Source: an uncultured Bdellovibrio sp. (lineage in GTDB: Bacteria; Bdellovibrionota; Bdellovibrionia; Bdellovibrionales; Bdellovibrionaceae). From it: a stretch of DNA of 64,000 nucleotides. Shown in pieces: positions 706 to 25,384 of the stretch. Position 1 is the first letter of the stretch. Each line of letters begins with the position of its first letter. The notes below the pieces were generated by a model, which saw nothing but the letters and a program-made list of their open reading frames with translations, made no database searches and was not told the DNA's origin. Where the stretch lies: positions 55-64,054 of the forward strand of contig CAWVRN010000027.1 in NCBI GenBank assembly GCA_963932905.1. Direction: 5' to 3'. A program made the translations under genes and the position numbers.

Positions 706-1914
706 TTAAATGTAAAGTCCCTTTAGCTTAAAGGCCTTTTTAAATACATCTGGTGAAGCATCGTTAATTTTGCCATTTGCATCCATAAGGCTAGCGAAAA
801 TTACAGACGGCGTCAGCATCGCGGTTTCTTTTTCAGCCATCATAGGTTGCAGTGTTTGTGTTGAAAGAGGCATACCCACTAATACAGAAACACCAATCGG
901 ACTGTACTGAGGATCTAACAAACGACTGCGACCAACAATAACTTCCGGTTTCAACTTGGGCGACATAACAATCATTGAATTCGAGAATGGGTTGTGATCT
1001 TTACCACCGCTTACGTTCAACGCGGGAGTCCGCGTGAAATCAGAAGATACTACGACTGTCGTTAAATCTAAAAGTGATTTACCCGAATTCTTATACTGAA
1101 TTGTGCTCAAAGCATCCAAATATTTAGCGATTGTTTGGAAGTTTTCAACCAATGATTTTTTATGAGTATTTGCATGATCGCTGTGAGTATCCAAACTTCC
1201 CGACAATCGAATAAATGCCGCTGGGTACACTTGCGAAAGAAATCCCTTAACAAGATTGCTAACATTGGTATCAGTAACAGCGCTTAACTGAGTTTTGTAT
1301 TCTTGCGCAATTTGATTTAGCTGCATAGAAACCTTGCTCAAAGTGCTATAGGAATTTGAAATTATACCCGACTTACCTGCCGCTGCCATAGTTCCACTGG
1401 CCGTGAATGAACTAATACTTGAAATATTATCAGACGTAACAATTTTATAATTGCGGCCTGCTGTTTCTACTGTCGCGTTGGCAATGATTGATGCTGATTG
1501 ATTTCTATAATACAAATCCATGAACTGACATACGTAACTAGGTTCTGAACCATCAGATGCACCCGATACCGCAAATGTAGCTGGACTTGGATGACCAACT
1601 TCCACCGGGCTCATCATCACACCATTAAATATCGTCATGCGTGGAAAATATTTTTGTACCGGAGCCATCGTCGGCCCGACAAAACCATTTCCAAATTTCA
1701 AGGTGTCATTCGCAGAGTATTCGATAAATATTTTTTTAGGATCTGGTGTAGTAGCAAAATTCCAAGCTTCTGTCATCAATGTCGTATCCCAGCCAGCATC
1801 CATGTAAAATTGTAGCAAGAACTGTGGTCCCGACTCCTGCGATAAAGCCCAACTAGGGAACAGGCTTAATGATGATAGTGCTATCGTACTTTGAATAAAT
1901 TCACGTCGTTTCAT
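706..1914 (-). CDS. Tat-signal DUF1501-like (sulfatase-fold-like) protein
   Basis: 402 aa. It has a twin-arginine leader (MKRREFIQSTIALSSLSL...). Motifs MDAGWDTT, GSLDTHSDH and SSDFTRTPALNVSGGKDHN resemble my recollection of the DUF1501 signature (SEFGRTP..GGRDH). No HMM was run. Confidence 0.6.
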   Translation of the reverse strand: MKRREFIQSTIALSSLSLFPSWALSQESGPQFLLQFYMDAGWDTTLMTEAWNFATTPDPKKIFIEYSANDTLKFGNGFVGPTMAPVQKYFPRMTIFNGVMMSPVEVGHPSPATFAVSGASDGSEPSYVCQFMDLYYRNQSASIIANATVETAGRNYKIVTSDNISSISSFTASGTMAAAGKSGIISNSYSTLSKVSMQLNQIAQEYKTQLSAVTDTNVSNLVKGFLSQVYPAAFIRLSGSLDTHSDHANTHKKSLVENFQTIAKYLDALSTIQYKNSGKSLLDLTTVVVSSDFTRTPALNVSGGKDHNPFSNSMIVMSPKLKPEVIVGRSRLLDPQYSPIGVSVLVGMPLSTQTLQPMMAEKETAMLTPSVIFASLMDANGKINDASPDVFKKAFKLKGLYI

Positions 1915-2617: not shown

Positions 2618-4147
2618 TTACTTACCCTCAAAGTCAGGAGCACCCTGAGACAGCCAGTTATTCAATCGAGTGATTTCTGCATCCGTGAAATCTCTCTTAC
2701 CTTCTTTAGGTGGCATTTTACCTTTGTGAAGCTCTGTCTTTACACGTCTCATCCAGTCAGAGCGATCTTCATTTTTCTTATTACTGATCAACGCATACCA
2801 ATCCAAATTCTGAACTTCAAAATTTTCGTTTTGTTGATTATGACAGCCTTGGCATTTCTTAAGTGTTTTATAGGCACTTACTGTAGCCAACTGAGATTCC
2901 GTATATTGAACCGGAGTATAGAAGTCCTTTTTCATTACCAGGTGTTTGATGAAATCTTGAGGCTTTTGGTTTACATCTTTAAATGCTTTCACCAATTCGA
3001 TTTCTTGTGACGGAGTTAAAATGCTGTTCTCACCATAAATCCATTTCCAAAAATGTCTGACTTGACATGAAAAATAGTCTTTTTCAGTAGTCAGAACAGA
3101 ACCCAGGTTACCAATACCATCGACTGTATGTTTGCTGAACTCACCATCTTCATTATAATAGTTAAGTGCACCTATCGATGCTTTGGCGTTCAACCGATTT
3201 GGTGACAGATTAAATAAATCACCCAGCGGATCAAGCTGCTTATGGCAATGCTGACAGTCCACATTCGTTCCGTGAATTTGTGTCATCTTGGTATGGTTAA
3301 CTAAATCGTTCTCTGTGTACTGACCTTCTCCAGCTAGAGCCAATTTCTTATTTTCGTCCACGCCCTCTTTAGGAACGGGAATCGACGCGACCATATCTTT
3401 ACAAAGAAACGTTCTAAACACAGCCGCAGCTCTGCGGCGATTGCTATTAACACCCGTCGTTACGTAACGACTCAAAAAGCTTGGTGTTGTTAAAGCACCG
3501 GCAATACGTTTATCGTCGCCAGGAAAACTAATACGAACACCAGTGAAATTCTCTGCGTCTGAATTATAAGTCTTATCCAGCGACGTATCTGTTAGTTCCG
3601 AAATGGGAAGCATATCGAATTCTTTCAGTTTAGGCTGCAAACCTGAATAGAATAGCAACTGTTGCAAGCCAAAGTCAGACTCGTTCTTTGAATAAAAAAC
3701 AAAATAATTCTTACGATTCAAAATATCAGTCCATGGACTATTCGTTTCCAATATCTCGCGTACTAACAAATGAAATGCAGAATATCCGTATTTGTAACTT
3801 CCATATTCTGGAGACAACGGAACGCCAGAATATTTTGAATAGTCCGACGTGAAATTGTAACTGATTGGCGCTTGATCCATTCTAAATGTATCCGAAACCT
3901 TATTCGCAAACTTCATTCCGAACTCTTTAGACTTCAAATATTCATCCAGTTTTAATTCTAAAACTTTTTCCACCGGCATAGATTTCAATTTCTCAACCAC
4001 ATCTACATACTCAGCCGCCGATGGATTTTTTCCGCGCACTACGTAACTTAGTTTCTTAAGTTTATGTTCAATGGCAAGTTCTTGCGCAACAGAAGTTCCG
4101 CAATTTATAAGTAGTAAAAATGAAATGAAAATGTTAAGCGCGCGCAT
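2618..4147 (-). CDS. Secreted protein with two CxxCH motifs (DUF1588/PSCyt-like putative heme-binding protein)
   Basis: 509 aa with a signal peptide. CQHCHKQLDPLGDLF resembles the CxxCH..DPxG motif of the DUF1588-type family. The C-terminal CQGCH ... MPPKEG..FTDAEITRLNNWLSQGAP resembles a planctomycete-type cytochrome c domain. Confidence 0.6.
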   Translation of the reverse strand: MRALNIFISFLLLINCGTSVAQELAIEHKLKKLSYVVRGKNPSAAEYVDVVEKLKSMPVEKVLELKLDEYLKSKEFGMKFANKVSDTFRMDQAPISYNFTSDYSKYSGVPLSPEYGSYKYGYSAFHLLVREILETNSPWTDILNRKNYFVFYSKNESDFGLQQLLFYSGLQPKLKEFDMLPISELTDTSLDKTYNSDAENFTGVRISFPGDDKRIAGALTTPSFLSRYVTTGVNSNRRRAAAVFRTFLCKDMVASIPVPKEGVDENKKLALAGEGQYTENDLVNHTKMTQIHGTNVDCQHCHKQLDPLGDLFNLSPNRLNAKASIGALNYYNEDGEFSKHTVDGIGNLGSVLTTEKDYFSCQVRHFWKWIYGENSILTPSQEIELVKAFKDVNQKPQDFIKHLVMKKDFYTPVQYTESQLATVSAYKTLKKCQGCHNQQNENFEVQNLDWYALISNKKNEDRSDWMRRVKTELHKGKMPPKEGKRDFTDAEITRLNNWLSQGAPDFEGK

Positions 4148-10959: not shown

Positions 10960-11520
10960 CTAAAGGAGCTTTTTAGTCTTGTTATACCCGACCTGAATCA
11001 GCATTTTTAAGGCTTCTTGGTTTGTCGTTAGGTTCAATTTCAGACGAACTTCATTGATTAGGGCGATTGACGTTGAATCTAGCTCCAAAGAACCCGACAT
11101 TGAAGACACTGCCTGGGACGGTTGGGTATTCACATGAGTAGTCAGACCCGAATTATACTTTTTCTCCAAAGCCTGGAAATCCAAAGTTAATGCCTCTGCT
11201 ACTTTTTGAGGCGATTCACGCTTCGGTGGACCTTGAATATTCAAAGCATCCGCAGACTTAGCAGCGACCGCAGGAGTCCCCTCTTTTTCAAACTCACCCA
11301 TCAAACCTGCTAATTGTTTAAGCTCATGCTTAAAATTTTGGATCGAAGGGCGATCTAAAGCAGCGTCGCCGTCGCGAGTGGCTTTTAAATACAGACTGAC
11401 TAAAATATCAGGCGTGGTTGCCATTTCTTTTAGAGATGGATCCTGATTTTGCAACCAAGCGTACGCTTTTAAGAGCGAGTCTTTCGTGTAAGCTTGAGGT
11501 GGAATCGGATTCATTGTCAT
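10960..11520 (-). CDS. Hypothetical protein
   Basis: The ORF track gives a 199-aa frame from a TTG. I placed the start at the first ATG (MTMNPIPPQ...). There is no recognisable motif and the start is uncertain. Confidence 0.4.
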   Translation of the reverse strand: MTMNPIPPQAYTKDSLLKAYAWLQNQDPSLKEMATTPDILVSLYLKATRDGDAALDRPSIQNFKHELKQLAGLMGEFEKEGTPAVAAKSADALNIQGPPKRESPQKVAEALTLDFQALEKKYNSGLTTHVNTQPSQAVSSMSGSLELDSTSIALINEVRLKLNLTTNQEALKMLIQVGYNKTKKLL

Positions 11521-11700
11521 AGGAAAAACGACCCTAAGAATGTATCGCCTTCGAGTCAATACATCTTATTCGTCCATAAAAATAATGAATGGCATTATAA
11601 AAATTAATTATTTGGTGGCCAAAAATTTGAACATTTTCCTAAATAGCGTGAAATAGCTTGCCAGCGCTCATTTCACAAAAAATCATTCCACTTTCGTTAC

Positions 11701-14413: not shown

Positions 14414-14436
14414 CAAAAAAGACGAATCTCTCGTCT
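14414..14436 (-). terminator. Rho-independent terminator ending the rSAM-peptide-kinase-regulator operon
   Basis: The minus strand reads AGACGA-GAGAT-TCGTCT followed by TTTTTTG, immediately after the regulator stop codon (14437-14439). Confidence 0.6.
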
Positions 14437-15996
14437 TTACTCGCCGCTGTAATCCTTAGCTACGATGCCGTACTTTTCGATTTTTCGAAGAAGGGTCTTT
14501 TTAGGAATATTTGCGTGTAAGGCCGTTTGATTTATGCGACCTTTGAATGTTTTTAATGCTTTTATTATAAACTCTTTTTCAAACGTCTCTTTTTGAGCGT
14601 TGAAATCAAGTTCGCCGTTGAACGTAACCTTCATTCCCGCGCCGTCCATATCTATCTCGTCAGACTCCTCGTCGGAATCAACATCGGACTCTTCGACAAC
14701 ATCGATACCCGAATCCATAAATATCGGGCCCTTCGCCAACACCGACGACTGAGACTCCGCGAATTGCTTTTCAGCCTCGATCATTTTTTCCAAATCAAAC
14801 AGACTAACTCCAACTGCATCCAGAACCGCTTCTGGCAGCGATGACAAGGTGATCATATGGGAAGACTCGAGTACGAATGAATGCTCAATAACGTTCTCAA
14901 GCTCTCGAATATTTCCTGGCCAGTTGTATTTTTTAAGGATGTTCATTGCATCTACGGTTACACCAGAAATTTTCTTTTTATGAACTTCGTTAAACTTCTT
15001 AACGAAAATTTGGATCAAACGTTCGATGTCGTCTTTACGTTCAGCCAATGCTGGCAAGAATATAGGTACGACATTCAAACGATAGAATAAATCTTCACGG
15101 AAGGTTCCCGCTTTGATCATCTCTTCTAACGGACGATTTGTCGCTGCTATAATACGAACATTAGATTGAATTTCGCGGTTAGAACCAACCGGAGTAAATA
15201 ACTTCTCTTGAAGCACGCGCAGAATCTTAACCTGCATTAACTGCGGCATATCGCCGACTTCATCCAAGAACAGTGTTCCACCTTCAGCGAATTGGAATTT
15301 GCCAATCTTTCTTTCTGAGGCACCCGTGAATGAACCTTTTTCGTGACCAAACAACTCAGATTCAAATAAGTTTTCAGGGATCGCCGAACAGTTGATAGCT
15401 ACGAACTTGTCATCTTTTCTAGACGAGTTGAAATGGATCGCCTTCGCCACCAATTCTTTACCTGTACCCGATGATCCACGGATAAGAACTGGAGTATCTA
15501 CCTTCGCTAGTTTATTGATGATGTTAAACACCTTCTGCATTTGCGATGTATTACCGATAATTTTACGACCCGCTTCTACCAATACAGGCGAGCTAGCGGC
15601 GATGTTTGAAATTAATGAATGGGCATGGATCGCTTTTTCTACTAACGCGATTAAGTCTTCGGCCGCTACTGGCTTAGAAATATAATTGTAAGCGCCATCT
15701 TTGACCGCAACAACGGCGTCGTTCAAAGTAGCATGCGCTGTTAGCATTAACACGATCACACCCGGATCGAATTCTTTCATTTGTTTTAAAGCTTGAAGAC
15801 CGTTCAAGCGAGGCATGTCGACATCCAGTAATACGATATCGATTTTAGAACCTTCAGCGGTAGCTGCTTTGATTTTTTCAAGGGCGTTAATACCATCGAA
15901 TGCTTCAGAAACTTCGAATTTTTTTAAGGCTGCAAAAGCTGATTTGATAGAAAAACGCAATCCTGCATCGTCATCAACCACTAGAATTTTAAACAT
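14437..15996 (-). CDS. Sigma-54-dependent response regulator (NtrC family enhancer-binding protein)
   Basis: 519 aa. The REC domain reads ILVVDDD...LLDVDMP. The AAA+ domain has Walker A GSSGTGKE and ESELFGHEKGSFTGA (GAFTGA loop). A C-terminal Fis-type HTH is present, with an acidic insert (EESDVDSDEESDEID) before it. Confidence 0.9.
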   Translation of the reverse strand: MFKILVVDDDAGLRFSIKSAFAALKKFEVSEAFDGINALEKIKAATAEGSKIDIVLLDVDMPRLNGLQALKQMKEFDPGVIVLMLTAHATLNDAVVAVKDGAYNYISKPVAAEDLIALVEKAIHAHSLISNIAASSPVLVEAGRKIIGNTSQMQKVFNIINKLAKVDTPVLIRGSSGTGKELVAKAIHFNSSRKDDKFVAINCSAIPENLFESELFGHEKGSFTGASERKIGKFQFAEGGTLFLDEVGDMPQLMQVKILRVLQEKLFTPVGSNREIQSNVRIIAATNRPLEEMIKAGTFREDLFYRLNVVPIFLPALAERKDDIERLIQIFVKKFNEVHKKKISGVTVDAMNILKKYNWPGNIRELENVIEHSFVLESSHMITLSSLPEAVLDAVGVSLFDLEKMIEAEKQFAESQSSVLAKGPIFMDSGIDVVEESDVDSDEESDEIDMDGAGMKVTFNGELDFNAQKETFEKEFIIKALKTFKGRINQTALHANIPKKTLLRKIEKYGIVAKDYSGE

Positions 15997-16038: not shown

Positions 16039-17910
16039 TTAAAGCTGCGGCAATTGTACTACAAAAATCGTCCCTTTACCAGAGTCCGACTCTACAAATA
16101 TTTGCCCTTGGTGAAGCTCTGTAAAATATTTAGCCAGATATAGGCCCAATCCTGACCCTTTTATCGGCGAGCTCTTCGCATTTGCGCTCCTATAGAACTT
16201 CGAGAATAGGTGAGGCAATTCTTGGGCCGCAATGCCGGGTCCTTGATCCGCAATCACAAAAAATACGAAGCCATCTTTTTCATAGGTCTTTACGCTAATT
16301 TGCGTCTGCTCGGGCGCATATTTAATGGCATTTTCCAAAATATTCGAAAAAACCTGCCTCATCAGGTCTGGATCCATCCTAATTGGGAATAGAGGCTCAA
16401 GTTCAGAATGGATCTTCATCTTTTTGATCTGTGCCAAGAACTCGTGCTTTTTGATTACATCAGTGATTAGATTGTTTGGGTCCTTAGACTGCCAGTGCAG
16501 CTCAACACCCTGGAATTCAATTTTAGCGTAATTTAAAATAGAATTAATGAACTTCAACAAATCATCGCTAGACGATCTAATTGTGTCTACCGCTTCCCTT
16601 TGAGGAAGGCTGACACTTTGCTGATCCGCCAAAATAACATCCGTCATTCCCTTAATACGCGCAATAGGTGTCTTTAAATCGTGGGACATCATCGAAATGA
16701 AATTCGTTTTTAATTCCTCAACCTGTTTTAAAAGCCTGTTCTTTTCGTAATATTCCCAGCTACGACGATTCTCGATAATCAAGCGATAGGGAATGAAGAA
16801 ATAGTAACATAGAAAAATTGCCAGCAGCGGATGGGCCATTGATATCCAAAATCCAAATGGCCAAAATGCAAAATACGCGATCGCCACATACGATACCAGC
16901 AACGAGATAATAATTAACAAGCCCACGGCCGGACGAACCGCAAATACGATGTAAACAGTAATGATCGAGATCAAAATAGTCAGGGCTAAATTGAGCCACA
17001 CGGGTGCACGCACAATCGCGTTGTTCAGTATCAACGTATCAAACATATTGGCGTGCATTTCCGTCGTCGTCATCGCAATCGATGAACGGGAATACGGAGT
17101 CAGGATATAATCTTTTTCAGTTAATTCTAAATTCTGACCAATGATAACGATTTTATCTTTGATCGCCTGAGCTGAAACTTTGCCTTCCGCAAAATAGTGG
17201 AATGGAATTTTGTCATAGGAATTAGTCGGACGGAAATGAATATAAATTTGATCGGTTTCTAAGAAATTAAATAAACCTCGAATTTTATATTTTTCAGCAA
17301 CATCAGGATTATAGGTCGACGCCAGAAACGGATGGATCATGACTTGATCTTGGTAATTAACCATCATCCGGCGAGTTACACCATCTTTAGCAAAGTTGGC
17401 CGTGTCCGTGCTTTTAGGACCCGAAAATAATTTAATGCCCTCAAAAGGCTCGCTCATTTTAAGCTTACCTTCTTCACCACGCATTTCTAAAAAATTGGTC
17501 AGAACAAAGAGTTGTGGAAATGGTTCCGCCGCTTTTGCAAAATCCACTTTCTCTTTTTGATTTCCACTGATTTCGTCATAATTTAAATCATAGACGATGG
17601 CTCGTGGGCCAAGCTTTTTAATTTCTTCTAAAACTTTGGTGTGATCACTGAACTTTGGGATGCCTTTAAAATACTCAACTGATTCCGGATTGATTTCGGC
17701 TATCAAAATGTGCCCTGATGTTTCAGGAGCGGGAGAATATCGAACGCGTAGGTCGTAAAGGTAAGCTTCAAAGAAATCCAGCTTGATTTGATTGATAAAC
17801 AAAGCCAGACCGGTCGCTAGCGCCACTCGGAAAACCATGATTCCTAGAAATTTTATTCTGTCCCAACGGGACGTGGTATCAGTGGTTTTAAGCGAGGGCG
17901 GTAGTGCCAT
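16039..17910 (-). CDS. CHASE2-domain sensor histidine kinase
   Basis: 623 aa. Layout is an N-terminal TM helix, a periplasmic region of about 270 aa with a CHASE2-like pattern (ILIAEINPESVEYFKG...RAIVYDLNYDE), a cluster of TM helices, an H-box (SHDLKTPIARIKG) and an HATPase domain (GSGLGLYLAK). Confidence 0.8.
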   Translation of the reverse strand: MALPPSLKTTDTTSRWDRIKFLGIMVFRVALATGLALFINQIKLDFFEAYLYDLRVRYSPAPETSGHILIAEINPESVEYFKGIPKFSDHTKVLEEIKKLGPRAIVYDLNYDEISGNQKEKVDFAKAAEPFPQLFVLTNFLEMRGEEGKLKMSEPFEGIKLFSGPKSTDTANFAKDGVTRRMMVNYQDQVMIHPFLASTYNPDVAEKYKIRGLFNFLETDQIYIHFRPTNSYDKIPFHYFAEGKVSAQAIKDKIVIIGQNLELTEKDYILTPYSRSSIAMTTTEMHANMFDTLILNNAIVRAPVWLNLALTILISIITVYIVFAVRPAVGLLIIISLLVSYVAIAYFAFWPFGFWISMAHPLLAIFLCYYFFIPYRLIIENRRSWEYYEKNRLLKQVEELKTNFISMMSHDLKTPIARIKGMTDVILADQQSVSLPQREAVDTIRSSSDDLLKFINSILNYAKIEFQGVELHWQSKDPNNLITDVIKKHEFLAQIKKMKIHSELEPLFPIRMDPDLMRQVFSNILENAIKYAPEQTQISVKTYEKDGFVFFVIADQGPGIAAQELPHLFSKFYRSANAKSSPIKGSGLGLYLAKYFTELHQGQIFVESDSGKGTIFVVQLPQL

Positions 17911-17917
17911 TAGTTTT

Positions 17918-18058
17918 TTATCTTATTGGTAAACAGCCTTCGCCACCTTTGGCTTTAATAGCAGCTGATTCGCTATTAGCACCTTTAGATGATGATTTTG
18001 GCTTAATTTTTTTAATACTTTTAGATTTCATAATCGTTCCTAGTTCGATGTTTAACAT
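17918..18058 (-). CDS. Unannotated short ORF: candidate precursor peptide ending in CLPIR
   Basis: Hand translation of the minus strand gives MLNIELGTIMKSKSIKKIKPKSSSKGANSESAAIKAKGGEGCLPIR (46 aa from ATG 18058, with GGGG upstream). The alternative is 37 aa from ATG 18031, with AGGAA 6 nt upstream. The TAA stop at 17918-17920 lies 7 nt before the kinase ATG. It is below the 60-aa ORF-track cutoff. Confidence 0.5.
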   Translation of the reverse strand: MLNIELGTIMKSKSIKKIKPKSSSKGANSESAAIKAKGGEGCLPIR

Positions 18059-18107
18059 ATATACCCCTTTTTAAAAAATTTCAATTTTAATATCCGTTTT
18101 CAGACCA

Positions 18108-19463
18108 TTAAGCGGTCTGTTCCTCTCTGGCGATGGCATAGTAGTATAATGCTAGCGCCAGTAAAAATCTCGTTCTTTCACAGAATTGCAAACTTTTCTG
18201 TAATGTGTCCTTTTTCGACGTTGTTTGGTGGATAAACGAGCATCCCCCACCACACATATATTTCGCCCAACACGACTGACAGTTATTACGCTCTATAATC
18301 GTTTCTTCAGCGTATCCCGCTAGTTTAGCTTCATCCAGCACCGACCCACTACCTAGGCGATCCTGAACGCTGCCAACGGTCCAAGGACAATTGAACACTT
18401 GGTTGCGGCTATCAATCACCGCAAAACTTCGGCCCAATCCACAATGGTTTTCTAAACGTTCTTGTGAATCCAAGCGATCGAAATAGTTATCAAACAAATA
18501 GATCTTACGCAGTTCTGTTTCGCCGCCTAAATCCCATGCGGCTTTCGCGGTTTTCGTAACTTCTAGCATGTACTGCTCATTCGAAGCTTCGTCTAAATCG
18601 CTAACAGAATAAATAAAATCAATCCAATCGAAATTGAATTGTCTGAAATACTCATACGTTTCTAAAACCGCCGTGTGATCTTTAGTAAATACAGCGTGAA
18701 CGGCTACTGGACCGATCTCTGAACGAACTAAGTTCAATTTCGCTAACGTACTTTCAATCGCTTGCGATGTTGGTTTATTATTTTTTTGCGGACGGAAACG
18801 ATCGGTAATTTCAGGTTTTCCATCCATGCTGATCACAACCGTCGGTTTGTAAGTAGAAAGTAAATTTAAAATTTCATCATTCAGCAATGTGCCATTCGTT
18901 GTGATTTTGTATGACGGCAAAAAACCTTTTTCTTTAGCGGCCCCCGCAACGTACTCACAAATCGCGCGAATCCCCGCTGGGTACAGCAATGGTTCGCCAC
19001 CCAAGAAACTAATATGGAAGCGCTCACCTTTATCCAGTTTAGAAATAAAATAACTCAGCTGAGGTAATGTTTTTTCAATTTCAATACGCTTAACAGGATC
19101 GCCGTAACTACCATCACCGCCAGCGGCGCAGTAAGTGCATTTCAAATTACAAATTTGCGTCACGTTGATATTTAAACTTCTGGCTTTGAATTGAGTTTTA
19201 GTTTTTTTCAATTCAACAACGGGAGATTCTTGGCTCCATGTTTTTAGTTCGTTCGCATTTTCTGCCGACAAATCGGCACCAAATGTTTGTGGAATGATCG
19301 CGGATTTCAATGAAACTTTTGTCAGGCCATTGAACACCTCAGGCGTAAGTCTAGCCACTTCCAAGCTGTCGCTTTGAAAACCAATAAACGCATCCTTACC
19401 GTGCCCCAAAAAAGAGGCGGCGTTAAAGGCAGCTAGGTTTTGATATCGGCTAAGGTCTAACAC
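18108..19463 (-). CDS. Radical SAM/SPASM-domain enzyme (anSME-like peptide maturase candidate)
   Basis: 451 aa from a GTG start with GGAG 7 nt upstream. It has C105-x3-C109-x2-C112 (ICNLKCTYC). The full 7-Cys SPASM pattern is C341-x17-C359, C395-x2-C398-x5-C404-x3-C408 and C428. About 100 aa precede the rSAM motif. Confidence 0.85.
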   Translation of the reverse strand: MLDLSRYQNLAAFNAASFLGHGKDAFIGFQSDSLEVARLTPEVFNGLTKVSLKSAIIPQTFGADLSAENANELKTWSQESPVVELKKTKTQFKARSLNINVTQICNLKCTYCAAGGDGSYGDPVKRIEIEKTLPQLSYFISKLDKGERFHISFLGGEPLLYPAGIRAICEYVAGAAKEKGFLPSYKITTNGTLLNDEILNLLSTYKPTVVISMDGKPEITDRFRPQKNNKPTSQAIESTLAKLNLVRSEIGPVAVHAVFTKDHTAVLETYEYFRQFNFDWIDFIYSVSDLDEASNEQYMLEVTKTAKAAWDLGGETELRKIYLFDNYFDRLDSQERLENHCGLGRSFAVIDSRNQVFNCPWTVGSVQDRLGSGSVLDEAKLAGYAEETIIERNNCQSCWAKYMCGGGCSFIHQTTSKKDTLQKSLQFCERTRFLLALALYYYAIAREEQTA

Positions 19464-19500: not shown

Positions 19501-19516
19501 TGCAAAAAGGAAACCA
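19501..19516 (-). promoter_or_regulatory. Candidate sigma-54 (-24/-12) promoter upstream of the rSAM operon
   Basis: The minus strand reads TGGTTTCCTTTTTGCA. The GG and GC dinucleotides have the canonical spacing of TGGCACG-N4-TTGCW. The -24 half is degenerate (TGGTTT). It ends 37 nt before the GTG start. Confidence 0.35.
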
Positions 19517-19687: not shown

Positions 19688-20347
19688 ATGAATTTCCTAG
19701 GGTATAAAAACCTAATTTTTCTATACGTTCTAGCCGTTGTAGTTCTGCAAATGGGCTGCAGCAAAGGCGTCTATTTAGGTCCCGAGTCTGCCGAATTTTT
19801 GGCAACGGCATCAGAAGAAGACTGCGGCTATTTACAGAACGAATATGGCCAACGAGTTTCGTGGAAAGAAAATTTACCGGCAGAATTTTTCGTTTCCAAA
19901 ACTATACCCGAAGAATTTCGTCAAGATATTATCGACGCAGCCGAGGTTTGGAACAAATCGGCTGGAAAAACTGTTTTCAAAATTAACCTATCTGACTTAG
20001 ACGCCGGTCTTTCGACCTCGGATTCAAGAAATACAATCGCGGGCTACCAAACTTGGGACGAAGACAAAACGACTCAACAAGCAGTCACTATCGTAAAATA
20101 TCGCAGCAACCTAATTACAAGTGCCGATATAAAAGTTAACTTACATGATTTTGTTTATTACTCAAAAGATCCACAAAATTCAAAGCAAGTTCATTTTGGT
20201 AGTTTGCTAGTTCACGAACTTGGTCACGCGATGGGTTTAAAACACGCTTCGATTCGTCCAACAGTTATGTGGGCTACACTGGGTTTTGATATCGTCAGAA
20301 CTTCGATTTCAACAACCGATCAAAAATCGATAGGATGCGAGTACTAA
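19688..20347 (+). CDS. Metzincin-type zinc metalloprotease, probable lipoprotein
   Basis: 219 aa. It has a signal peptide with a lipobox-like LQMGCS, the HELGHAMGLKH motif (HExxHxxGxxH) and a downstream TVMW Met-turn candidate. Confidence 0.7.
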   Translation: MNFLGYKNLIFLYVLAVVVLQMGCSKGVYLGPESAEFLATASEEDCGYLQNEYGQRVSWKENLPAEFFVSKTIPEEFRQDIIDAAEVWNKSAGKTVFKINLSDLDAGLSTSDSRNTIAGYQTWDEDKTTQQAVTIVKYRSNLITSADIKVNLHDFVYYSKDPQNSKQVHFGSLLVHELGHAMGLKHASIRPTVMWATLGFDIVRTSISTTDQKSIGCEY

Positions 20348-20995
20348 ATGAAAAAAATATTAGCTCCATTAATTGTTTTCATTCTAATCGCTGCAAGCAC
20401 CTTAGTTTTCAGAAATCAAAATTTACGTCAACCATCTTCAGTGAATGTCGATCAGAACGGAATTCTGAAATTGATCGATAACGATCTATCAAGAAACGAA
20501 AACAAAAAACAAATCAAACGAGCTATTTTGCAAAGCTTAGATTGGAATTTTTCTGTTGAAAAATCGCAGCTCTCTTTTAAATTCGAAAATATTAAACTCC
20601 CTAATGGTAGCCAAACCAGCGACCTTTGCACTGCTTATTCACAGGCCACAATAACGCTAGAGGCACCCAACGTCAGTTACAGTGGCGAGCACCCGGAAAT
20701 AAATATTATTCAAAACTGCGAGAGCTTAGGAAATATTGTACAGTTTGAAATAGATCTGGGTTTACTGACTGATGTTTCCATACTGCAAACCGTGAAGGAA
20801 CAATCCAAATCGCTTGATTCCAGCATCCGCATAAACAATTGGGATGACGACGCCCCAGACAAATGGCGCGTAAAACAAGTGATCTTTCACAGTGCTTCAA
20901 AAACTCAAAAGCAAAATTTCGAAATAACAAAATATGAAATTCTTTCTGTACTTGGCTATTCTGTTGAATTTCAAACCACAGCAAAGAAACAATAA
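20348..20995 (+). CDS. Secreted hypothetical protein
   Basis: 215 aa with a signal/anchor (MKKILAPLIVFILIAAS). Its ATG directly follows the protease TAA (TAAATG). Confidence 0.5.
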   Translation: MKKILAPLIVFILIAASTLVFRNQNLRQPSSVNVDQNGILKLIDNDLSRNENKKQIKRAILQSLDWNFSVEKSQLSFKFENIKLPNGSQTSDLCTAYSQATITLEAPNVSYSGEHPEINIIQNCESLGNIVQFEIDLGLLTDVSILQTVKEQSKSLDSSIRINNWDDDAPDKWRVKQVIFHSASKTQKQNFEITKYEILSVLGYSVEFQTTAKKQ

Positions 20996-21308: not shown

Positions 21309-22307
21309 ATGTCACTTTATGTTAAATTTTGGGGAGTTAGAGGATCCTTACCTTCGAGTATGACACCGCAAGGTTGGACGTCACACATCCAAAATATACT
21401 AACAAATTACGATTCCAGCAAATCATCCACGGGTGGCATGGGTAACACGTCGTCGAGTCCATCAAAATTTTTATCAAATAAAAAAATCCATGAAATCGGT
21501 GGTTACGGCACCGGTACAACTTGTGTAGAAGTTAAATCTGCAAAAACTCAATTGATCATTGACGGTGGAACCGGCATTCGTAATTTCAGCGAAAAAATAA
21601 TGTCCGGAACATCGGGCCATGTAAAAGGTCCTTACCACATCTACATGACACATTTCCATTGGGACCACGTCATGGGTTTACCATTCTTCACACCGCACTT
21701 TGTTTCTGGTACACAAATTCACTATTACGGAGTTCAGAAAGACATCGAAGCATTAATCCGGGGTATTTTTAAACGCCCTTATTTCCCTGTCGCGTTTGAA
21801 CAATTAGCTGCAAAAATTCACTTTCATGTTCTAGAACCACGCCAAGCTTTTCAAATTGGTGATATGACAATTACGCCTTATTTGCTTGATCATCCAGATC
21901 CATGCTGGGGGCTAAAAGTCGAAGCTGGTGGCAAATGTTATTCTCACTGCGTGGATACAGAGGGTACTCGCGTAAGCCGCGAAGAACTTGGCTATGATTT
22001 AAAACTTTATGAAAATGTCGACTTAATGTATTTCGATGCCCAATATACATTTCCTGAGCTAGCCGAGAAAGCAAACTGGGGCCATAGCGCTGCACAGATT
22101 GGTTTAGATTTAGCCTTCCGTGAAGGTATCAAAAAAGTATTGTTTGCCCATCATGATCCGGGTGCAACAATCGAACAAATTCAGTCTATCAAAGATCAAA
22201 CTCTAGAATACTTTCAGTGGCGACTTGATCACGCTAAAGAATGCAACGAAGAAATCCCTATCTGCGAATGGGATTTTGCCTACGAAGGTTTAGAAATTAA
22301 ACTATAA
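21309..22307 (+). CDS. MBL-fold metallo-hydrolase
   Basis: 332 aa. It has the HFHWDH (HxHxDH) motif, later H and D ligands, and a KFWGVRGSLPS N-terminus. Confidence 0.75.
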   Translation: MSLYVKFWGVRGSLPSSMTPQGWTSHIQNILTNYDSSKSSTGGMGNTSSSPSKFLSNKKIHEIGGYGTGTTCVEVKSAKTQLIIDGGTGIRNFSEKIMSGTSGHVKGPYHIYMTHFHWDHVMGLPFFTPHFVSGTQIHYYGVQKDIEALIRGIFKRPYFPVAFEQLAAKIHFHVLEPRQAFQIGDMTITPYLLDHPDPCWGLKVEAGGKCYSHCVDTEGTRVSREELGYDLKLYENVDLMYFDAQYTFPELAEKANWGHSAAQIGLDLAFREGIKKVLFAHHDPGATIEQIQSIKDQTLEYFQWRLDHAKECNEEIPICEWDFAYEGLEIKL

Positions 22308-23165: not shown

Positions 23166-23834
23166 ATGAATTTATTAATAGTAGAAGATGATCCAATTAT
23201 AGCACGCGGACTTCAGGTTTTTTTGGAGTCTGCCAATTTTAAAGTTTCACACGCTAGCACTTTAAAACGCGCTTTTGAATTATTTGAAAAAGAAAAATAT
23301 AATTTAGCCGTATTAGATCTAGGCCTGACAGATGGCTCCGGTCTAACTTTTCTTGGACACGTTCGTGACAGCGGATCGTCACTACCTATTATTATCTTAA
23401 CAGCAAAGACTGATGAGGATTCGGTAGTTGAAGGCTTGCAAAAAGGAGCCAACGATTACATGAAGAAACCTTTCAGTAATCGCGAACTCCATGCGCGAAT
23501 CAATTCAGTTTTAAGAGTTCCCCCTCCATCAGAAAATACGGTAACATTTGGCGAGATGCAAATTTCAAAAGATCAGCGCATTGTAAAAATCAAAGATAAG
23601 ACTGTCGAACTTAATCGTCGCGAATTTGATTTACTTGTTCTTCTCAGTATAAAGCCCGACACGATTCTAACTCGCGAAAGAATTCTGACCGTTCTAGATA
23701 AGGAAGGTGAAATCTTTGATCGCACCGTAGATTCCCATATCAGCCATCTACGTTCTAAATTAAGACAAGCCGGCGCTGAAGGAATTAAAATTTCATCAGT
23801 CTATGGCGTTGGTTATCGATTGGAGAAAGTGTGA
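23166..23834 (+). CDS. OmpR-family response regulator
   Basis: 222 aa. The REC domain reads LLIVEDD...VLDLGLTDG...KP. The C-terminus is a winged-helix domain (..VYGVGYRLE). Confidence 0.9.
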   Translation: MNLLIVEDDPIIARGLQVFLESANFKVSHASTLKRAFELFEKEKYNLAVLDLGLTDGSGLTFLGHVRDSGSSLPIIILTAKTDEDSVVEGLQKGANDYMKKPFSNRELHARINSVLRVPPPSENTVTFGEMQISKDQRIVKIKDKTVELNRREFDLLVLLSIKPDTILTRERILTVLDKEGEIFDRTVDSHISHLRSKLRQAGAEGIKISSVYGVGYRLEKV

Positions 23835-25384
23835 TTACTACTCGCATTTACCAGAAGTATTTTTTAATGGCTGTATCACTCATTCTCGTATTTATAATTT
23901 TGGGTGTAGCTTTTAATAACTACATGATGGAACTAATGCGTCCTCAGAAGCGCGAATCTATGGCGCCAATTTTCATTGCCAGAATTATCGATAGAATTAA
24001 TCCCACGGACAAAGCAAAGTCCATTGAGGAACTTCAATCCTGGGATCGTGGACCAATGAGTCCTAGATTATCCTTAGTCAATCAAACTGGTGAATGCTTA
24101 TATCCTAAAAGCTGTGACTTAGGTATCGATTGGAAAACTGTGGTTTTCCCGAAAAACACTTATGAATTTACGACGATAAAAAATAAAGTTGATCAGCCAC
24201 CACGACCGCCAAATTTTGGATTTTTTCCACCACTTGGTGGACCTGGAGTCCCCGGTGGGCCTGGTGGTCCCGGCGGACCGGGTGGCCCTGGCGGTCCCGG
24301 TGGTCCACCATTCATGCACATGGAGCCAACACTTATTAAATTAAATAATCCGGAACCATTGTACTTGGTTGTTATGGCAGGAAATCCGCCTCCAATGCCT
24401 CCGCCAGGCGGGGCCTACGGTCCCTTGCTTGGAATTGGGTCACTTCTTATATCTTTATTTTTAGGCGTAGGTTTCACAGTCGCTATCATTTTCAATTCCA
24501 TGCGCAAAGGTGTAACAGAAGCCGACCGAGTTATTTCTGAAATTAAAAGTGGGAATTTGAAATCACGCTTTAAAGTAAACCGTAAAGATGAATTTGGTCA
24601 GGCCATGCAACGCTTCAACACAATGGCAGACGAAATTGAAAAACTAGTTCACGGTTTAAAAACATCAGAACAAGCACGAACAAAAGTTCTTCAAGAACTA
24701 GCACATGATTTAAGAACACCGCTGGCATCACTCAGAAACCTAATCGACACACTTCATTCCAGTATAGATCGTTTAGACAGTGACACACGAAACGAATTAC
24801 TCACACTCTCATCGAAAGAAATCGACTACTTCGAACGTCTTGTTGAAGACCTATTATTTTTAGCGCAATTGAAAGAACCGGACTATGTAGATGTTCGTTC
24901 CACATTCAATCTGCCGGAAACTATCTTGGATGTGACGGAAGACTGCCTATTTATGTATTCTCAAAAAGGAAAAAAACTGGAACTAGTTGAAAATTTAAAA
25001 AACCAACAGCAACAATTTGCCGGCGACCAACATCCTATCAAACGATTGGCGCGGAACGCAGTCGAGAACGCCTGTTCATTTGCAAAATCTAAAGTGACTG
25101 TGAAATTAGAAAACGTCGATAATAGGATGATTCGACTGACCATCGCTGACGACGGTCCAGGATTTAAAAACGAAGATCTAGGCCAGTTTGGACAAAGAAA
25201 TATTAGCCGAAAATTAAATACGGATGCAAATGGTCGCGTTTCATTGGGATTAGGCTCTGTCGTTATCAAAACAATTTGCGATGTTTATCATGGCACCGTT
25301 TCTATACAGAATATAAAAAGCAGTTCGGGAGCGGTACTTGGTGCAGAAATCAGGATCGAACTACCTAATAACCTGTACGCATAA
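23831..25384 (+). CDS. Sensor histidine kinase (HAMP-HisKA-HATPase) with a Gly/Pro-rich sensor region
   Basis: 517 aa from a GTG start that overlaps the regulator stop (GTGA). It has two TM segments, a HAMP domain, an H-box (HDLRTPLASL) and an ATPase domain (DDGPGF, GLGSVV). Confidence 0.85.
   Translation: MITTRIYQKYFLMAVSLILVFIILGVAFNNYMMELMRPQKRESMAPIFIARIIDRINPTDKAKSIEELQSWDRGPMSPRLSLVNQTGECLYPKSCDLGIDWKTVVFPKNTYEFTTIKNKVDQPPRPPNFGFFPPLGGPGVPGGPGGPGGPGGPGGPGGPPFMHMEPTLIKLNNPEPLYLVVMAGNPPPMPPPGGAYGPLLGIGSLLISLFLGVGFTVAIIFNSMRKGVTEADRVISEIKSGNLKSRFKVNRKDEFGQAMQRFNTMADEIEKLVHGLKTSEQARTKVLQELAHDLRTPLASLRNLIDTLHSSIDRLDSDTRNELLTLSSKEIDYFERLVEDLLFLAQLKEPDYVDVRSTFNLPETILDVTEDCLFMYSQKGKKLELVENLKNQQQQFAGDQHPIKRLARNAVENACSFAKSKVTVKLENVDNRMIRLTIADDGPGFKNEDLGQFGQRNISRKLNTDANGRVSLGLGSVVIKTICDVYHGTVSIQNIKSSSGAVLGAEIRIELPNNLYA
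24236..24307 (+). repeat. In-frame 8 x 9-nt (GGN-GGN-CCN) tract encoding GGP GVP (GGP)6
   Basis: Read directly: ggtggacct ggagtcccc ggtgggcct ggtggtccc ggcggaccg ggtggccct ggcggtccc ggtggtcca. The units differ at synonymous positions. Confidence 0.9.

What the first reader, a model, noticed from the sequence alone, without database searches (positions are those of the whole stretch)
17918..19463. Hidden short ORF ending in C-L-P-I-R (minimal sulfatase formylglycine motif) next to an anSME-like radical SAM/SPASM enzyme
The ORF track shows nothing in the 197-nt gap between the rSAM stop (18108) and the kinase start (17910). The minus strand there encodes MLNIELGTIMKSKSIKKIKPKSSSKGANSESAAIKAKGGEGCLPIR. 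The ATG at 18058 follows GGGG, and an internal ATG at 18031 follows AGGAA. The N-terminal half is very Lys-rich and leader-like. The single Cys sits in C-x-P-x-R at the extreme C-terminus. (C/S)-x-(P/A)-x-R is the core recognised by anaerobic sulfatase-maturating enzymes, which are themselves radical SAM/SPASM proteins. The adjacent enzyme has CNLKCTYC at residues 105-112. It also has a complete 7-Cys SPASM signature: C341, C359, C395-x2-C398-x5-C404-x3-C408 and C428. About 100 residues precede the rSAM motif. As far as I recall, canonical anSMEs lack such an extension, and in RiPP maturases this region usually holds the peptide-recognition element. No sulfatase gene is visible in the window. 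My inference is a RiPP-like system in which a free peptide, not a sulfatase, is the substrate. The product would carry either a formylglycine aldehyde or a Cys-derived thioether. I do not recognise this combination as a described family.
Basis: partly seen in the sequence, partly recalled or inferred. Interest (0 to 1): 0.85.

Follow-up and report, generated by a model that had tools for sequence, protein, structure and literature searches.

The report
Bdellovibrio radical-SAM peptide wired to sensor kinase
The hidden short gene is real: it encodes the precursor of an unnamed modified peptide that predatory Bdellovibrio bacteria always keep in one operon with its radical-SAM modifying enzyme and a sensor kinase/regulator pair. 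The enzyme looks like a thioether cross-linker, not a sulfatase maturase.

Summary
A 46-aa ORF (17918-18058, minus strand; likely true start 18031, 37 aa) ends in GGEGCLPIR and lies between a radical SAM/SPASM gene and a CHASE2 histidine kinase.

A homologous short ORF follows the orthologous rSAM gene in all 78 related Bdellovibrionota loci that have downstream DNA. Across 147 distinct precursors the leader motif is HIKK(V/I)KP. The core has one Cys in an invariant C-x-P (147/147) and Gly at -3 (124/147). The Arg of "CxPxR" occurs in only 30/147, so the sulfatase-motif reading is largely coincidental.

The enzyme is not an anSME. TIGR03942 scores 88 bits against a cutoff of 349. It lacks the anSME fourth Aux-I cysteine. 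Its 7 Cys map onto CteB's 3-Cys AC1 and 4-Cys AC2, and its model superposes full-length on CteB, including the N-terminal leader-binding (RRE) domain. The best HMM hits are thioether formers (PapB, QhpD and SCIFF maturases).

rSAM, peptide, CHASE2 kinase and sigma-54 response regulator form a conserved four-gene operon behind a conserved sigma-54-type promoter. The gene order matches agrBDCA and comQXPA.

Most likely this is an undescribed single-thioether RiPP tied to an autoregulated two-component circuit, possibly a peptide signal. Neither the chemistry nor the signalling role has been tested.

The parts
19502..19516 (-). Sigma-54-type promoter element TGGTTTCCTTTTTGC (GG at -24, TTGC at -12; followed by A), 53 nt upstream of the rSAM GTG start
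   Evidence: Read directly. TGG-N9-TGC lies upstream of the rSAM on the same strand in 65/80 loci (nearly all as TTGC), with about 7 more near-variants, against 8% of random 272-nt windows. It is the best-conserved block in upstream alignments of two clades. No sigma-70-like site was found on this strand upstream of the rSAM or the peptide.
18108..19463 (-). Radical SAM/SPASM peptide maturase, 451 aa, GTG start. It has CX3CX2C at residues 105-112 and a 7-Cys SPASM domain: AC1-type C341/C359/C408 and AC2-type C395/C398/C404/C428.
   Evidence: Pfam Radical_SAM. The best NCBIfam hits are PapB, nif11 maturase, QhpD and SCIFF maturase, all below cutoff, with anSME far lower. PDB hits are CteB 7e-27 and anSMEcpe 5e-13. 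The AF2 model has pLDDT 90.4 and Foldseek TM 0.76-0.78 to CteB over its full length. Invariant residues are listed.
19188..19463 (-). N-terminal domain (about residues 1-92) of the maturase; putative RiPP leader-recognition element (RRE)
   Evidence: No sequence-level family hit. The predicted fold is beta-strands plus helices at pLDDT about 90. The whole model aligns to CteB over 460 columns, against about 380 columns for anSMEcpe, which lacks this domain. The CteB N-terminal domain is an RRE (established knowledge, Grove et al. 2017).
17918..18058 (-). Precursor peptide gene (46 aa from ATG 18058; probable true start ATG 18031, giving 37 aa MKSKSIKKIKPKSSSKGANSESAAIKAKGGEGCLPIR)
17999..18019 (-). 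Leader motif S-I-K-K-I-K-P (family consensus H-I-K-K-V/I-K-P), the presumed RRE-binding determinant
   Evidence: I15, K16, K17 and K19 are at least 90% conserved and P20 is invariant in alignment A4. The motif is present in 145/147 distinct precursors. The binding role is inferred.
17921..17947 (-). Core G-G-E-G-C-L-P-I-R. It holds the single Cys (17933-17935) in the invariant C-x-P, with Gly at -3.
   Evidence: Anchored statistics on 147 distinct precursors: C 147/147, P(+2) 147/147, G(-3) 124/147; +1 I/V/L, +3 S/V/T/I, +4 G82/R30/K12.
16039..17910 (-). Sensor histidine kinase, 623 aa: N-terminal TM, periplasmic CHASE2 (residues 35-316), TM bundle, HisKA and HATPase_c. It starts 7 nt after the peptide stop codon.
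   Evidence: Pfam CHASE2 3e-26, HisKA and HATPase_c. An ortholog was detected at this position in 69/80 loci. Ten of the 11 others are truncated contigs, and seven of these still show the kinase N-terminus; L066, with 2050 nt of downstream DNA, is unresolved. The peptide-stop to kinase-start gap has a median of 19 nt, n=63.
14437..15996 (-). NtrC-type response regulator / sigma-54 enhancer-binding protein, 519 aa (REC, AAA+ sigma-54 activator domain, Fis-type HTH)
   Evidence: Pfam Response_reg, Sigma54_activat 2.5e-72 and HTH_8. NCBIfam AtoC/NtrC-like. It lies directly after the kinase in 64/80 loci and in L081.
14418..14438 (-). Terminator-like hairpin (AAAGACGAGAGATTCGTCTTT followed by TTTTG) at the response-regulator stop codon; probable end of the four-gene operon
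   Evidence: Consensus scan only.

Best explanation
The window carries a four-gene, sigma-54-dependent operon that is a fixed feature of Bdellovibrionaceae and Pseudobdellovibrionaceae. Its gene order is an RRE-containing radical SAM/SPASM maturase, a 37-46-aa precursor peptide, a CHASE2 sensor histidine kinase, and an NtrC-type sigma-54 activator.

**Shown**
- The peptide gene is real and co-inherited with the enzyme in every locus.
- Its conserved elements are a Lys-rich leader, HIKK(V/I)KP, and a core, G-x-(G/A/S)-C-(I/V/L)-P-x-(G/R/K), with a single Cys.
- The enzyme has the architecture and cluster-ligand pattern of the thioether-forming RiPP maturases CteB, PapB and Tte1186. It does not have that of anaerobic sulfatase maturases.

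**Inferred mechanism**
1. The N-terminal RRE binds the HIKKVKP leader.
2. The lone Cys thiolate ligates the open iron of auxiliary cluster I.
3. The 5'-deoxyadenosyl radical abstracts an H atom from a nearby residue.
4. One Cys-S-to-carbon thioether closes a small ring near the C-terminus.

The acceptor residue is unknown. Gly(-3), which would give an NxxC-like spacing, or a residue at +1 to +4 are the candidates.

**Inferred circuit**
The response regulator activates the operon's own sigma-54 promoter. Peptide, enzyme, sensor and regulator would then be produced together in a feedback loop, with the same logic and gene order as agrBDCA and comQXPA. The modified peptide may be the signal sensed by the CHASE2 kinase.

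**Sub-probabilities**

| Claim | Probability |
|---|---|
| Genuine precursor/maturase pair | about 0.95 |
| Not anSME/formylglycine chemistry | about 0.85 |
| Single thioether | about 0.5 |
| Functional regulatory coupling to the two-component system | about 0.85 |
| Peptide is the kinase's ligand | about 0.25 |
For: **Peptide**
- A short ORF follows the rSAM in 78/78 loci with downstream DNA and in L081.
- Close relatives show third-codon-position bias.
- C-x-P is present in 147/147 distinct precursors, and 145/147 have a single Cys.
- An exhaustive profile scan found 55 representatives, all of the same design.

**Enzyme**
- NCBIfam bit scores: PapB 168, nif11 maturase 154, QhpD 127, SCIFF maturase 121, anSME 88.
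- PDB phmmer gives CteB 7e-27 against anSMEcpe 5e-13.
- Foldseek aligns the model full-length to CteB with TM 0.76-0.78.
- The seven invariant Cys have the same spacing as CteB AC1 (C344/C362/C413) and AC2 (C400/C403/C409/C432). Se-XAS shows that the substrate Cys binds AC1 in PapB and Tte1186 (PMC10177961).
- anSMEcpe needs an extra Cys261 to ligate Aux I fully (PMC5715301). That residue is absent here.

**Operon**
- The kinase and regulator were detected at fixed positions in 69 and 64 of 80 loci. All but one of the loci without a detected kinase are truncated contigs.
- The median gap from peptide stop to kinase start is 19 nt.
- A sigma-54-type promoter is present in 65/80 loci against an 8% background.
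- A terminator-like hairpin follows the regulator.
Against: - No product was observed, so the chemistry rests only on homology and the ligand pattern.
- No acceptor residue is universally conserved apart from Pro(+2). Acidic acceptors of the PapB/QhpD type are absent from many cores.
- The enzyme scores below every equivalog cutoff, so a different radical reaction is possible.
- The cassette has no exporter, leader protease or signal peptide. How the peptide would reach a periplasmic CHASE2 domain is therefore unexplained.
- The core is more conserved than the enzyme. KGGEGCLPIR is identical at 53% enzyme identity. This differs from the pherotype diversification seen in agr and comX.
- A family-wide enhancer (UAS) site could not be defined.
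- The promoter and terminator calls are consensus matches only.
Confidence: 0.6

Rival explanations
1. One reading: the enzyme performs anSME-type oxidation of the peptide's Cys to C-alpha-formylglycine, giving an aldehyde-bearing free peptide.
For: The invariant C-x-P overlaps the (C/S)-x-(P/A)-x-R sulfatase core, and 30/147 precursors have the full CxPxR. anSMEcpe is the second-best structural match. No conserved cross-link acceptor is evident.
Against: TIGR03942 scores 88 bits against a cutoff of 349, and PRK13758 scores 66 against 441. The fourth Aux-I cysteine of anSMEcpe (Cys261) is absent. An invariant Pro360 occupies the position of anSMEcpe Asp277, the proposed catalytic base (alignment; the role of D277 is recalled from Goldman et al. 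2013 and not re-read). The Arg is not conserved. No Ser-type variant occurs among 147 precursors. The enzyme carries an RRE, as RiPP maturases do.
Confidence: 0.1
2. The peptide/rSAM pair makes a secreted or predation-related effector such as an antimicrobial or a prey-directed peptide. The two-component system only switches it on in response to an external cue; the peptide is not the kinase's ligand.
For: Many RiPP clusters are controlled by adjacent two-component systems. The CHASE2 domain is a large periplasmic sensor whose ligand I recall as unknown (not checked here). The core sequence is highly conserved and not diversified into pherotypes. The sigma-54 promoter and co-transcription fit simple regulation equally well.
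Against: The cassette has no immunity, transporter or protease genes. It is universal, found at one locus per genome in all but one assembly among the 80 retrieved loci, and syntenic across the family, like a core regulatory module and unlike an accessory antibiotic cluster. The peptide gene sits between the enzyme and the sensor and abuts the kinase start.
Confidence: 0.3
3. The rSAM performs a different radical modification that does not consume the Cys as a thioether donor. Examples are a C-C or C-N cross-link, epimerisation, or a modification of the invariant Pro, with the Cys serving only to anchor the substrate to auxiliary cluster I.
For: The enzyme falls below all curated cutoffs. In the CteB crystal structure, the Cys bound to AC1 was not the cross-linking Cys (PMC10177961). 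Pro(+2) is as invariant as the Cys.
Against: Four of the five nearest curated families (PapB, QhpD, SCIFF and CcpM maturases) act on Cys-containing precursors; for the nif11 maturase the chemistry was not checked. Having exactly one Cys in 145/147 precursors suggests the Cys is the reactive centre.
Confidence: 0.2
4. The enzyme is a housekeeping anSME for sulfatases encoded elsewhere, and the short ORF is a chance ORF.
For: A sulfatase-clan DUF1501 protein is encoded 16 kb away.
Against: The short ORF is conserved in 78/78 loci with coding-type substitution patterns. The DUF1501 protein has no (C/S)x(P/A)xR motif. No sulfatase signature occurs in the window. The enzyme fails the anSME model and ligand tests.
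Confidence: 0.01

Closest known systems
CteB / Tte1186 (SCIFF maturases) and PapB (freyrasin maturase): ranthipeptide-type thioether-forming rSAM/SPASM enzymes
   Same: N-terminal RRE, a CX3CX2C radical SAM core, and a SPASM domain with a 3-Cys AC1 (open site for the substrate Cys) and a 4-Cys AC2 at the same spacing. A small precursor gene lies adjacent. These are the best HMM, PDB-sequence and fold matches.
   Different: About 20% identity, and scores below half of every equivalog cutoff. The precursor has one Cys, against six in SCIFF and PapA. It has a different leader (HIKKVKP), an invariant C-x-P and no conserved Asp/Thr acceptor. It occurs in aerobic Gram-negative predators and not in Clostridia or Paenibacillus, and it is hard-wired to a two-component system.
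Anaerobic sulfatase-maturating enzymes (anSMEcpe, AtsB; TIGR03942)
   Same: The same rSAM/SPASM superfamily branch. The substrate motif shares C-x-P, and the core fold matches (TMt about 0.74).
   Different: No RRE in anSME. anSME has eight SPASM-region Cys with a fully ligated Aux I. Asp277 is replaced by Pro here. The substrate here is a free 37-46-aa peptide, the Arg is not conserved, and there is no sulfatase partner.
agrBDCA (staphylococci, clostridia) and comQXPA (Bacillus) peptide quorum-sensing cassettes
   Same: The gene order is identical: modifying enzyme, small precursor peptide, membrane histidine kinase, response regulator. All are in one unit whose promoter is plausibly activated by its own regulator (established knowledge for agr and com; inferred here).
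   Different: None of the four proteins is homologous. The modification is by a radical SAM enzyme, not by a thiolactone-forming protease or a prenyltransferase. The sensor is a periplasmic CHASE2 domain, the regulator is a sigma-54 activator, and the host is Gram-negative. No export route is evident, and the core is conserved and not split into pherotypes.
NxxcB/NxxcA (streptococcal rSAM RiPP with a Cys-to-Asn(-3) beta-thioether)
   Same: A single short-range cross-link with donor Cys and a conserved residue three positions upstream. Here G-x-x-C is present in 84% of precursors.
   Different: The resemblance is in spacing only and is recalled from the literature. Gly offers only a C-alpha position. 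The enzymes were not compared directly here.

Membership tests
Anaerobic sulfatase-maturating enzyme (anSME, TIGR03942 / PRK13758) | Scores above the curated HMM cutoff | tested here: not met
   88 bits against 349.45 for TIGR03942, and 65.6 against 441 for PRK13758.
Anaerobic sulfatase-maturating enzyme (anSME, TIGR03942 / PRK13758) | Both auxiliary clusters fully Cys-ligated, with an eighth Cys (anSMEcpe Cys261) upstream of the 7-Cys motif | tested here: not met
   There is no Cys between C341 and C359 in the query, and none is invariant in 62 homologues. The anSMEcpe ligand list is from PMC5715301.
Anaerobic sulfatase-maturating enzyme (anSME, TIGR03942 / PRK13758) | Catalytic Asp next to the Aux-I Cys (anSMEcpe C276-D277) | tested here: not met
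   The query has C359-P360, and P360 is invariant. The role of D277 is recalled from Goldman et al. 2013; that paper is not held.
Anaerobic sulfatase-maturating enzyme (anSME, TIGR03942 / PRK13758) | Substrate is a sulfatase carrying (C/S)-x-(P/A)-x-R | tested here: not met
   No sulfatase signature occurs in the window. The conserved partner is a 30-60-aa peptide in which the Arg is present in only 30/147. Whole genomes were not scanned.
Thioether-forming RRE-rSAM-SPASM RiPP maturases (CteB/PapB/Tte1186 clade; sacti-/ranthipeptides) | CX3CX2C plus SPASM with a 3-Cys AC1 and a 4-Cys AC2 | tested here: met
   C105/C109/C112. C341/C359/C408 and C395/C398/C404/C428 are invariant and have the same spacing as CteB C344/C362/C413 and C400/C403/C409/C432.
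Thioether-forming RRE-rSAM-SPASM RiPP maturases (CteB/PapB/Tte1186 clade; sacti-/ranthipeptides) | N-terminal RiPP recognition element | tested here: met
   Fold level only. The AF2 model (pLDDT 90.4) aligns to CteB over 460 columns including the N-terminal domain, TM 0.76/0.78. There is no Pfam PqqD hit.
Thioether-forming RRE-rSAM-SPASM RiPP maturases (CteB/PapB/Tte1186 clade; sacti-/ranthipeptides) | Adjacent Cys-containing precursor peptide with a leader and a core | tested here: met
   Present in 78/78 loci, with the conserved leader HIKK(V/I)KP and a C-x-P core.
Thioether-forming RRE-rSAM-SPASM RiPP maturases (CteB/PapB/Tte1186 clade; sacti-/ranthipeptides) | Product contains a Cys-S-to-carbon (alpha, beta or gamma) thioether | not testable with these tools
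   This needs MS/MS or NMR of the co-expressed product.
Specific equivalogs: PapB (NF047865), SCIFF maturase (TIGR03974), nif11 maturase (TIGR04064), QhpD (TIGR03906) | Score above the curated equivalog cutoff | tested here: not met
   168 against 340, 121 against 425, 154 against 519 and 127 against 453 bits. The enzyme is not a member of any named equivalog.
SCIFF precursor (TIGR03973, six Cys in forty-five residues) | Six-Cys precursor matching the model | tested here: not met
   There is one Cys per precursor. One of 48 peptides gives E=0.1 to TIGR03973 and none is significant.
agr / comQXPA-type autoinducing-peptide cassettes (functional class, not a homology family) | Gene order of modifying enzyme, precursor, histidine kinase and response regulator in one transcription unit | tested here: met
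   A terminator-like site follows the regulator.
agr / comQXPA-type autoinducing-peptide cassettes (functional class, not a homology family) | Operon promoter activated by its own response regulator | tested here: inconclusive
   A conserved sigma-54-type promoter precedes an operon that encodes a sigma-54 activator. No family-wide activator binding site could be defined, and there are no expression data.
agr / comQXPA-type autoinducing-peptide cassettes (functional class, not a homology family) | Mature peptide is exported and is the ligand of the cognate kinase | not testable with these tools
   No exporter, protease or signal peptide was found in the cassette.

The most novel reading that the evidence does not exclude
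The radical-SAM-modified C-x-P peptide is a self-produced signal sensed by the periplasmic CHASE2 domain of the co-transcribed kinase, closing a sigma-54-driven autoinduction loop. That would be an agr/ComX-like peptide quorum- or self-sensing system in a Gram-negative predatory bacterium. As far as I recall, though I did not check it here, it would also be the first ligand assigned to a CHASE2 sensor. It could bear on how Bdellovibrio coordinates its attack-phase and growth-phase decisions.
Probability: 0.22. Interest if true: 0.85.

Novelty: new variant of a known kind. Interest (0 to 1): 0.66.

Why it matters
Radical SAM/SPASM-modified peptides are a known kind of natural product. This family differs in three ways:
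- it has no curated model and no hit in the literature searched;
- its core is minimal, with a single Cys in an invariant C-x-P, so its chemistry cannot be read off from relatives;
- it is not an accessory cluster, but a fixed, syntenic operon across a whole family of predatory bacteria, fused to a CHASE2 kinase and a sigma-54 activator.

If the peptide proves to be the kinase's ligand, there would be three consequences. It would give Gram-negative bacteria an agr/ComX-style modified-peptide signalling system. It would supply a ligand for CHASE2, a sensor domain whose ligands I recall as unknown (not checked here). It would add a tractable regulatory handle on Bdellovibrio behaviour.

Even if it is only a regulated RiPP, the enzyme-substrate pair is small and clean. 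It would be a good system for defining what a one-Cys, CteB-like maturase does.

Tried and rejected
1. **Sulfatase or anSME housekeeping role.** Rejected on the HMM scores, the cluster-ligand pattern, the lack of any sulfatase signature in the window, and the universal peptide partner.
2. **CxPxR as the conserved element.** Rejected: it is present in 30/147 precursors, whereas C-x-P is present in 147/147.
3. **A PapB/QhpD-type acidic acceptor.** Asp or Glu near the Cys occurs in many cores but not all, and at inconsistent positions. It is not claimed.
4. **A family-wide enhancer (UAS) inverted repeat, TTTGCC...GGCAAA, upstream of the sigma-54 promoter.** It is visible within two clades, but the strict pattern is found in only 6/81 loci. 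It is not claimed.
5. **Conserved neighbours as extra cassette members.**
   - The MBL-fold protein (21309-22307) is often divergent from the rSAM.
   - The 199-aa protein (10960-11559) usually follows the regulator, but here it is separated from it by about 2.9 kb of other genes.
   - The M10 metalloprotease (19688-20347) is adjacent only in some clades.
   
   All three are treated as synteny, not as parts of the system.
6. **Literature.** Six searches found nothing describing this cassette: Bdellovibrio with radical SAM and RiPP, CHASE2 with radical SAM, Bdellovibrio with SPASM, Bdellovibrio with CHASE2, ranthipeptide with quorum sensing, and Bdellovibrio with sigma-54, kinase and rSAM. Goldman et al. 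2013 (anSMEcpe structure) is not held.
7. The scan was repeated with database-derived peptides.
8. **RNA scans.** Rfam and tRNA scans of the window found nothing.
9. **Not possible with the tools.** An enzyme-peptide complex could not be modelled, whole genomes could not be scanned for sulfatases, and the B. bacteriovorus HD100 locus tags could not be recovered to look up expression data.


Full report
**1. The observation**

The minus strand between 18058 and 17918 encodes MLNIELGTIMKSKSIKKIKPKSSSKGANSESAAIKAKGGEGCLPIR. It lies in the 197-nt gap between the stop of a 451-aa radical SAM gene (18108-19463) and the ATG of a 623-aa kinase gene (17910). CNLKCTYC is at residues 105-112. C341, C359, C395, C398, C404, C408 and C428 are invariant in 18 and in 62 homologues. 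The exact peptide sequence exists in public collections only as 'hypothetical protein' or unnamed.

**2. Is the short ORF real?**

The rSAM protein has hundreds of close homologues, essentially all from Bdellovibrionota. I fetched 80 genomic loci around orthologues with 39-93% identity. They include cultured B. bacteriovorus and Bdellovibrio sp. genomes.

- Every one of the 78 loci with DNA downstream of the rSAM gene has a short ORF directly after it or overlapping its 3' end. So does a 53%-identity locus obtained independently, whose peptide ends in ...KGGEGCLPIR.
- Among the window and three close relatives, differences concentrate at third codon positions: 9-15 changes against 1-7 at positions 1 and 2.
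- Most amino-acid changes fall in the first nine codons. Other clades have only 2-9 residues before the leader motif. The true start is therefore probably ATG 18031, preceded by AGGAA, giving a 37-aa product.
- A profile of database-derived peptides, searched exhaustively against 1.84 billion representative proteins, found 55 proteins at E<=0.001, all of the same design.

Pooling everything gives 147 distinct precursors.

| Position relative to Cys | Residues (of 147) |
|---|---|
| -3 | Gly 124 |
| -1 | small (G/A/S) |
| 0 | Cys 147 |
| +1 | I/V/L 125 |
| +2 | Pro 147 |
| +3 | S/V/T/I 110 |
| +4 | Gly 82, Arg 30, Lys 12 |

- 145 of the 147 have exactly one Cys.
- The leader motif HIKK(V/I)KP, or a close variant, is present in 145.
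- 54 end four residues after the Cys. The rest carry tails of up to 13 residues, for example CIPSGNPPDAAN.

The conserved element is therefore C-x-P in a G-x-x-C-x-P frame. It is not the sulfatase motif CxPxR, which only 20% of members happen to have.

**3. The enzyme**

No curated family claims it.
- NCBIfam's best hits are PapB (168 bits, cutoff 340), the nif11-peptide maturase (154), QhpD (127), the SCIFF maturase (121) and CcpM (109). The anSME models score 88 and 66 bits against cutoffs of 349 and 441.
- Against PDB sequences the best match is CteB (7e-27), then anSMEcpe (5e-13).
- An AlphaFold2 model built on 62 homologues (pLDDT 90.4, pTM 0.90) superposes on CteB over 460 columns (TM 0.76/0.78). 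That span includes CteB's N-terminal domain. anSMEcpe matches only the core of about 380 columns. The support is at fold level only.

Two diagnostic features separate the enzyme from anSMEs.
- anSMEcpe ligates Aux I with four cysteines (C255, C261, C276, C330), one of them outside the 7-Cys motif (PMC5715301). Here there is no Cys between C341 and C359, and none is conserved in the family. The seven Cys instead map with identical spacing onto CteB's AC1 (C344/C362/C413, three ligands) and AC2 (C400/C403/C409/C432). PapB and Tte1186 share this pattern. Selenium XAS shows that in those two enzymes the substrate's cross-linking (Se)Cys binds AC1 directly (PMC10177961).
- The residue after the second Aux-I Cys is an invariant Pro (P360), where anSMEcpe has Asp277. 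Asp277 is the proposed catalytic base for the oxidation. That role is recalled from Goldman et al. 2013; the paper is not held.

The most economical reading follows. The single Cys of the peptide docks on the open iron of AC1 and is joined to a nearby carbon as a thioether. The acceptor cannot be named. Acidic residues are not consistently placed. Gly(-3) would give an NxxC-like spacing and necessarily an alpha-thioether. Residues +1 to +4 are the other candidates, because half of the family ends at +4. Formylglycine formation is not excluded, but it is disfavoured.

**4. The surroundings**

Downstream, 7 nt after the peptide stop, starts a histidine kinase. It has an N-terminal TM segment, a periplasmic CHASE2 domain (3e-26), a TM bundle, HisKA and HATPase_c. 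An NtrC-type response regulator follows, with a REC domain, a sigma-54 activator AAA+ domain (2.5e-72) and a Fis-type HTH.

- Orthologues of both were detected at the same positions in 69 and 64 of the 80 loci. Ten of the 11 loci without a detected kinase are truncated contigs, and seven of these still show the kinase N-terminus. L066 is unresolved.
- The peptide-stop to kinase-start gap has a median of 19 nt (n=63).
- A terminator-like hairpin sits at the regulator's stop codon.
- Upstream of the rSAM gene, 53 nt before its GTG, lies TGGTTTCCTTTTTGCA (19516-19501, minus strand). It has the GG-N10-GC spacing of sigma-54 promoters.
- TGG-N9-TGC, almost always as TTGC, occurs on the coding strand within 260 nt upstream of the rSAM start in 65/80 loci. 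About seven more carry near-variants. Only 8% of random windows of the same size contain it.
- This element is the most conserved block in upstream alignments of two clades. No sigma-70-like site was found there.

An operon that encodes a sigma-54 activator and is itself preceded by a conserved sigma-54 promoter suggests autoregulation. This is an inference. I could not define a family-wide activator binding site.

**5. How it probably works**

Shown:
- a conserved precursor/maturase pair;
- CteB-like architecture and cluster-ligand pattern;
- an invariant four-gene arrangement with a sigma-54-type promoter.

Inferred:
- the RRE binds the HIKKVKP leader;
- one thioether forms at the lone Cys;
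- the regulator drives its own operon.

The order of modifying enzyme, precursor, membrane kinase and regulator is the same as in agrBDCA and comQXPA (established knowledge). The peptide may therefore be the signal for the CHASE2 kinase.

Three points count against the signalling idea. No exporter, leader protease or signal peptide is present in the cassette. The core is more conserved than the enzyme, which is the opposite of pherotype diversification. CHASE2 is a large periplasmic domain, and I recall no known ligand for it. The main functional rival is a regulated effector peptide, with the two-component system acting only as the switch.

**6. Comparison with known systems, and novelty**

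The enzyme works like, and structurally belongs with, the RRE-rSAM-SPASM thioether-forming maturases. It is not a member of any named equivalog: PapB, SCIFF maturase, QhpD, nif11 maturase or anSME. The precursor matches no Pfam or NCBIfam model. Its homologues are unnamed or 'hypothetical protein', and it is not in the protein collection for B. bacteriovorus strain s4. Six full-text searches found no description of the cassette. I therefore rate it a new variant of a known kind. It is an undescribed RiPP family with a minimal one-Cys C-x-P core, fixed in the core genome of a predatory lineage and hard-wired to a CHASE2/sigma-54 two-component system.

**7. Verdict**

The RiPP pairing and the RRE hold up. 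The sulfatase-motif and anSME framing does not.
- Interest is 0.66. The conservation is striking, and the possible peptide-signalling role in a Gram-negative predator would surprise specialists. Both the chemistry and the signalling role are still untested.

Noticed in passing
window 706-1914 (-) and 2618-4147 (-): A DUF1501 protein (alkaline-phosphatase/sulfatase clan, with a Tat-like N-terminus MKRREFIQS...) lies next to a PSCyt2/PSCyt3 (DUF1549/DUF1588) protein. This is the pairing typical of Planctomycetes-type gene pairs. The DUF1501 protein has no (C/S)x(P/A)xR motif and only one Cys.
   Followed up: partly
window 19688-20347 (+), 20348-20995 (+), 21309-22307 (+): Three genes are transcribed divergently from the rSAM: a matrixin-like (Peptidase_M10) 219-aa protein, an unannotated 215-aa protein and an MBL-fold 332-aa protein. 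The MBL-fold gene is the immediate divergent neighbour of the rSAM (51-480 nt away) in many other loci. The protease pair is inserted only in the window's and a few other clades. Whether any of them processes the peptide is unknown.
   Followed up: partly
window 10960-11559 (-): A 199-aa protein with no Pfam or NCBIfam hit has a homologue downstream of the response regulator, directly after it in most cases, in 48 of the 80 loci. In this window it is separated from the regulator by about 2.9 kb carrying a 132-aa secreted-looking protein, a 4HBT thioesterase, a GDSL-like lipase and a 180-aa ORF.
   Followed up: partly
L032 3473-3565 and 3591-3707: One Bdellovibrio MAG carries two tandem precursor genes after the rSAM: ...TTGLSCIPIG and ...TTGLACIPSGLPNSSSN. 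It is the only duplication seen among the 80 loci.
   Followed up: no
L052 and L077 (genome contigs): Two contigs with the complete Bdellovibrio-type cassette are deposited in MAGs labelled 'Bacillota bacterium' and 'Streptomyces griseus'. This is most likely mis-binning, not horizontal transfer.
   Followed up: no
L029, L031, L036, L040, about 60-90 nt upstream of the rSAM start: One clade has a perfect palindrome, GTGTCAAAACGACAC, between the sigma-54-type promoter and the start codon. Related half-sites (TTTTGACAC/C) lie further upstream. This may be a regulator binding site specific to that clade.
   Followed up: no
window 23166-25384 (+): A second, unrelated two-component system (an OmpR-type regulator plus a HAMP histidine kinase) lies about 4 kb from the cassette.
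   Followed up: no
L009, about 90-200 nt upstream of the rSAM start: A run of N followed by poly-G lies just upstream of the promoter region in this MAG contig. This is an assembly or scaffolding artefact.
   Followed up: no
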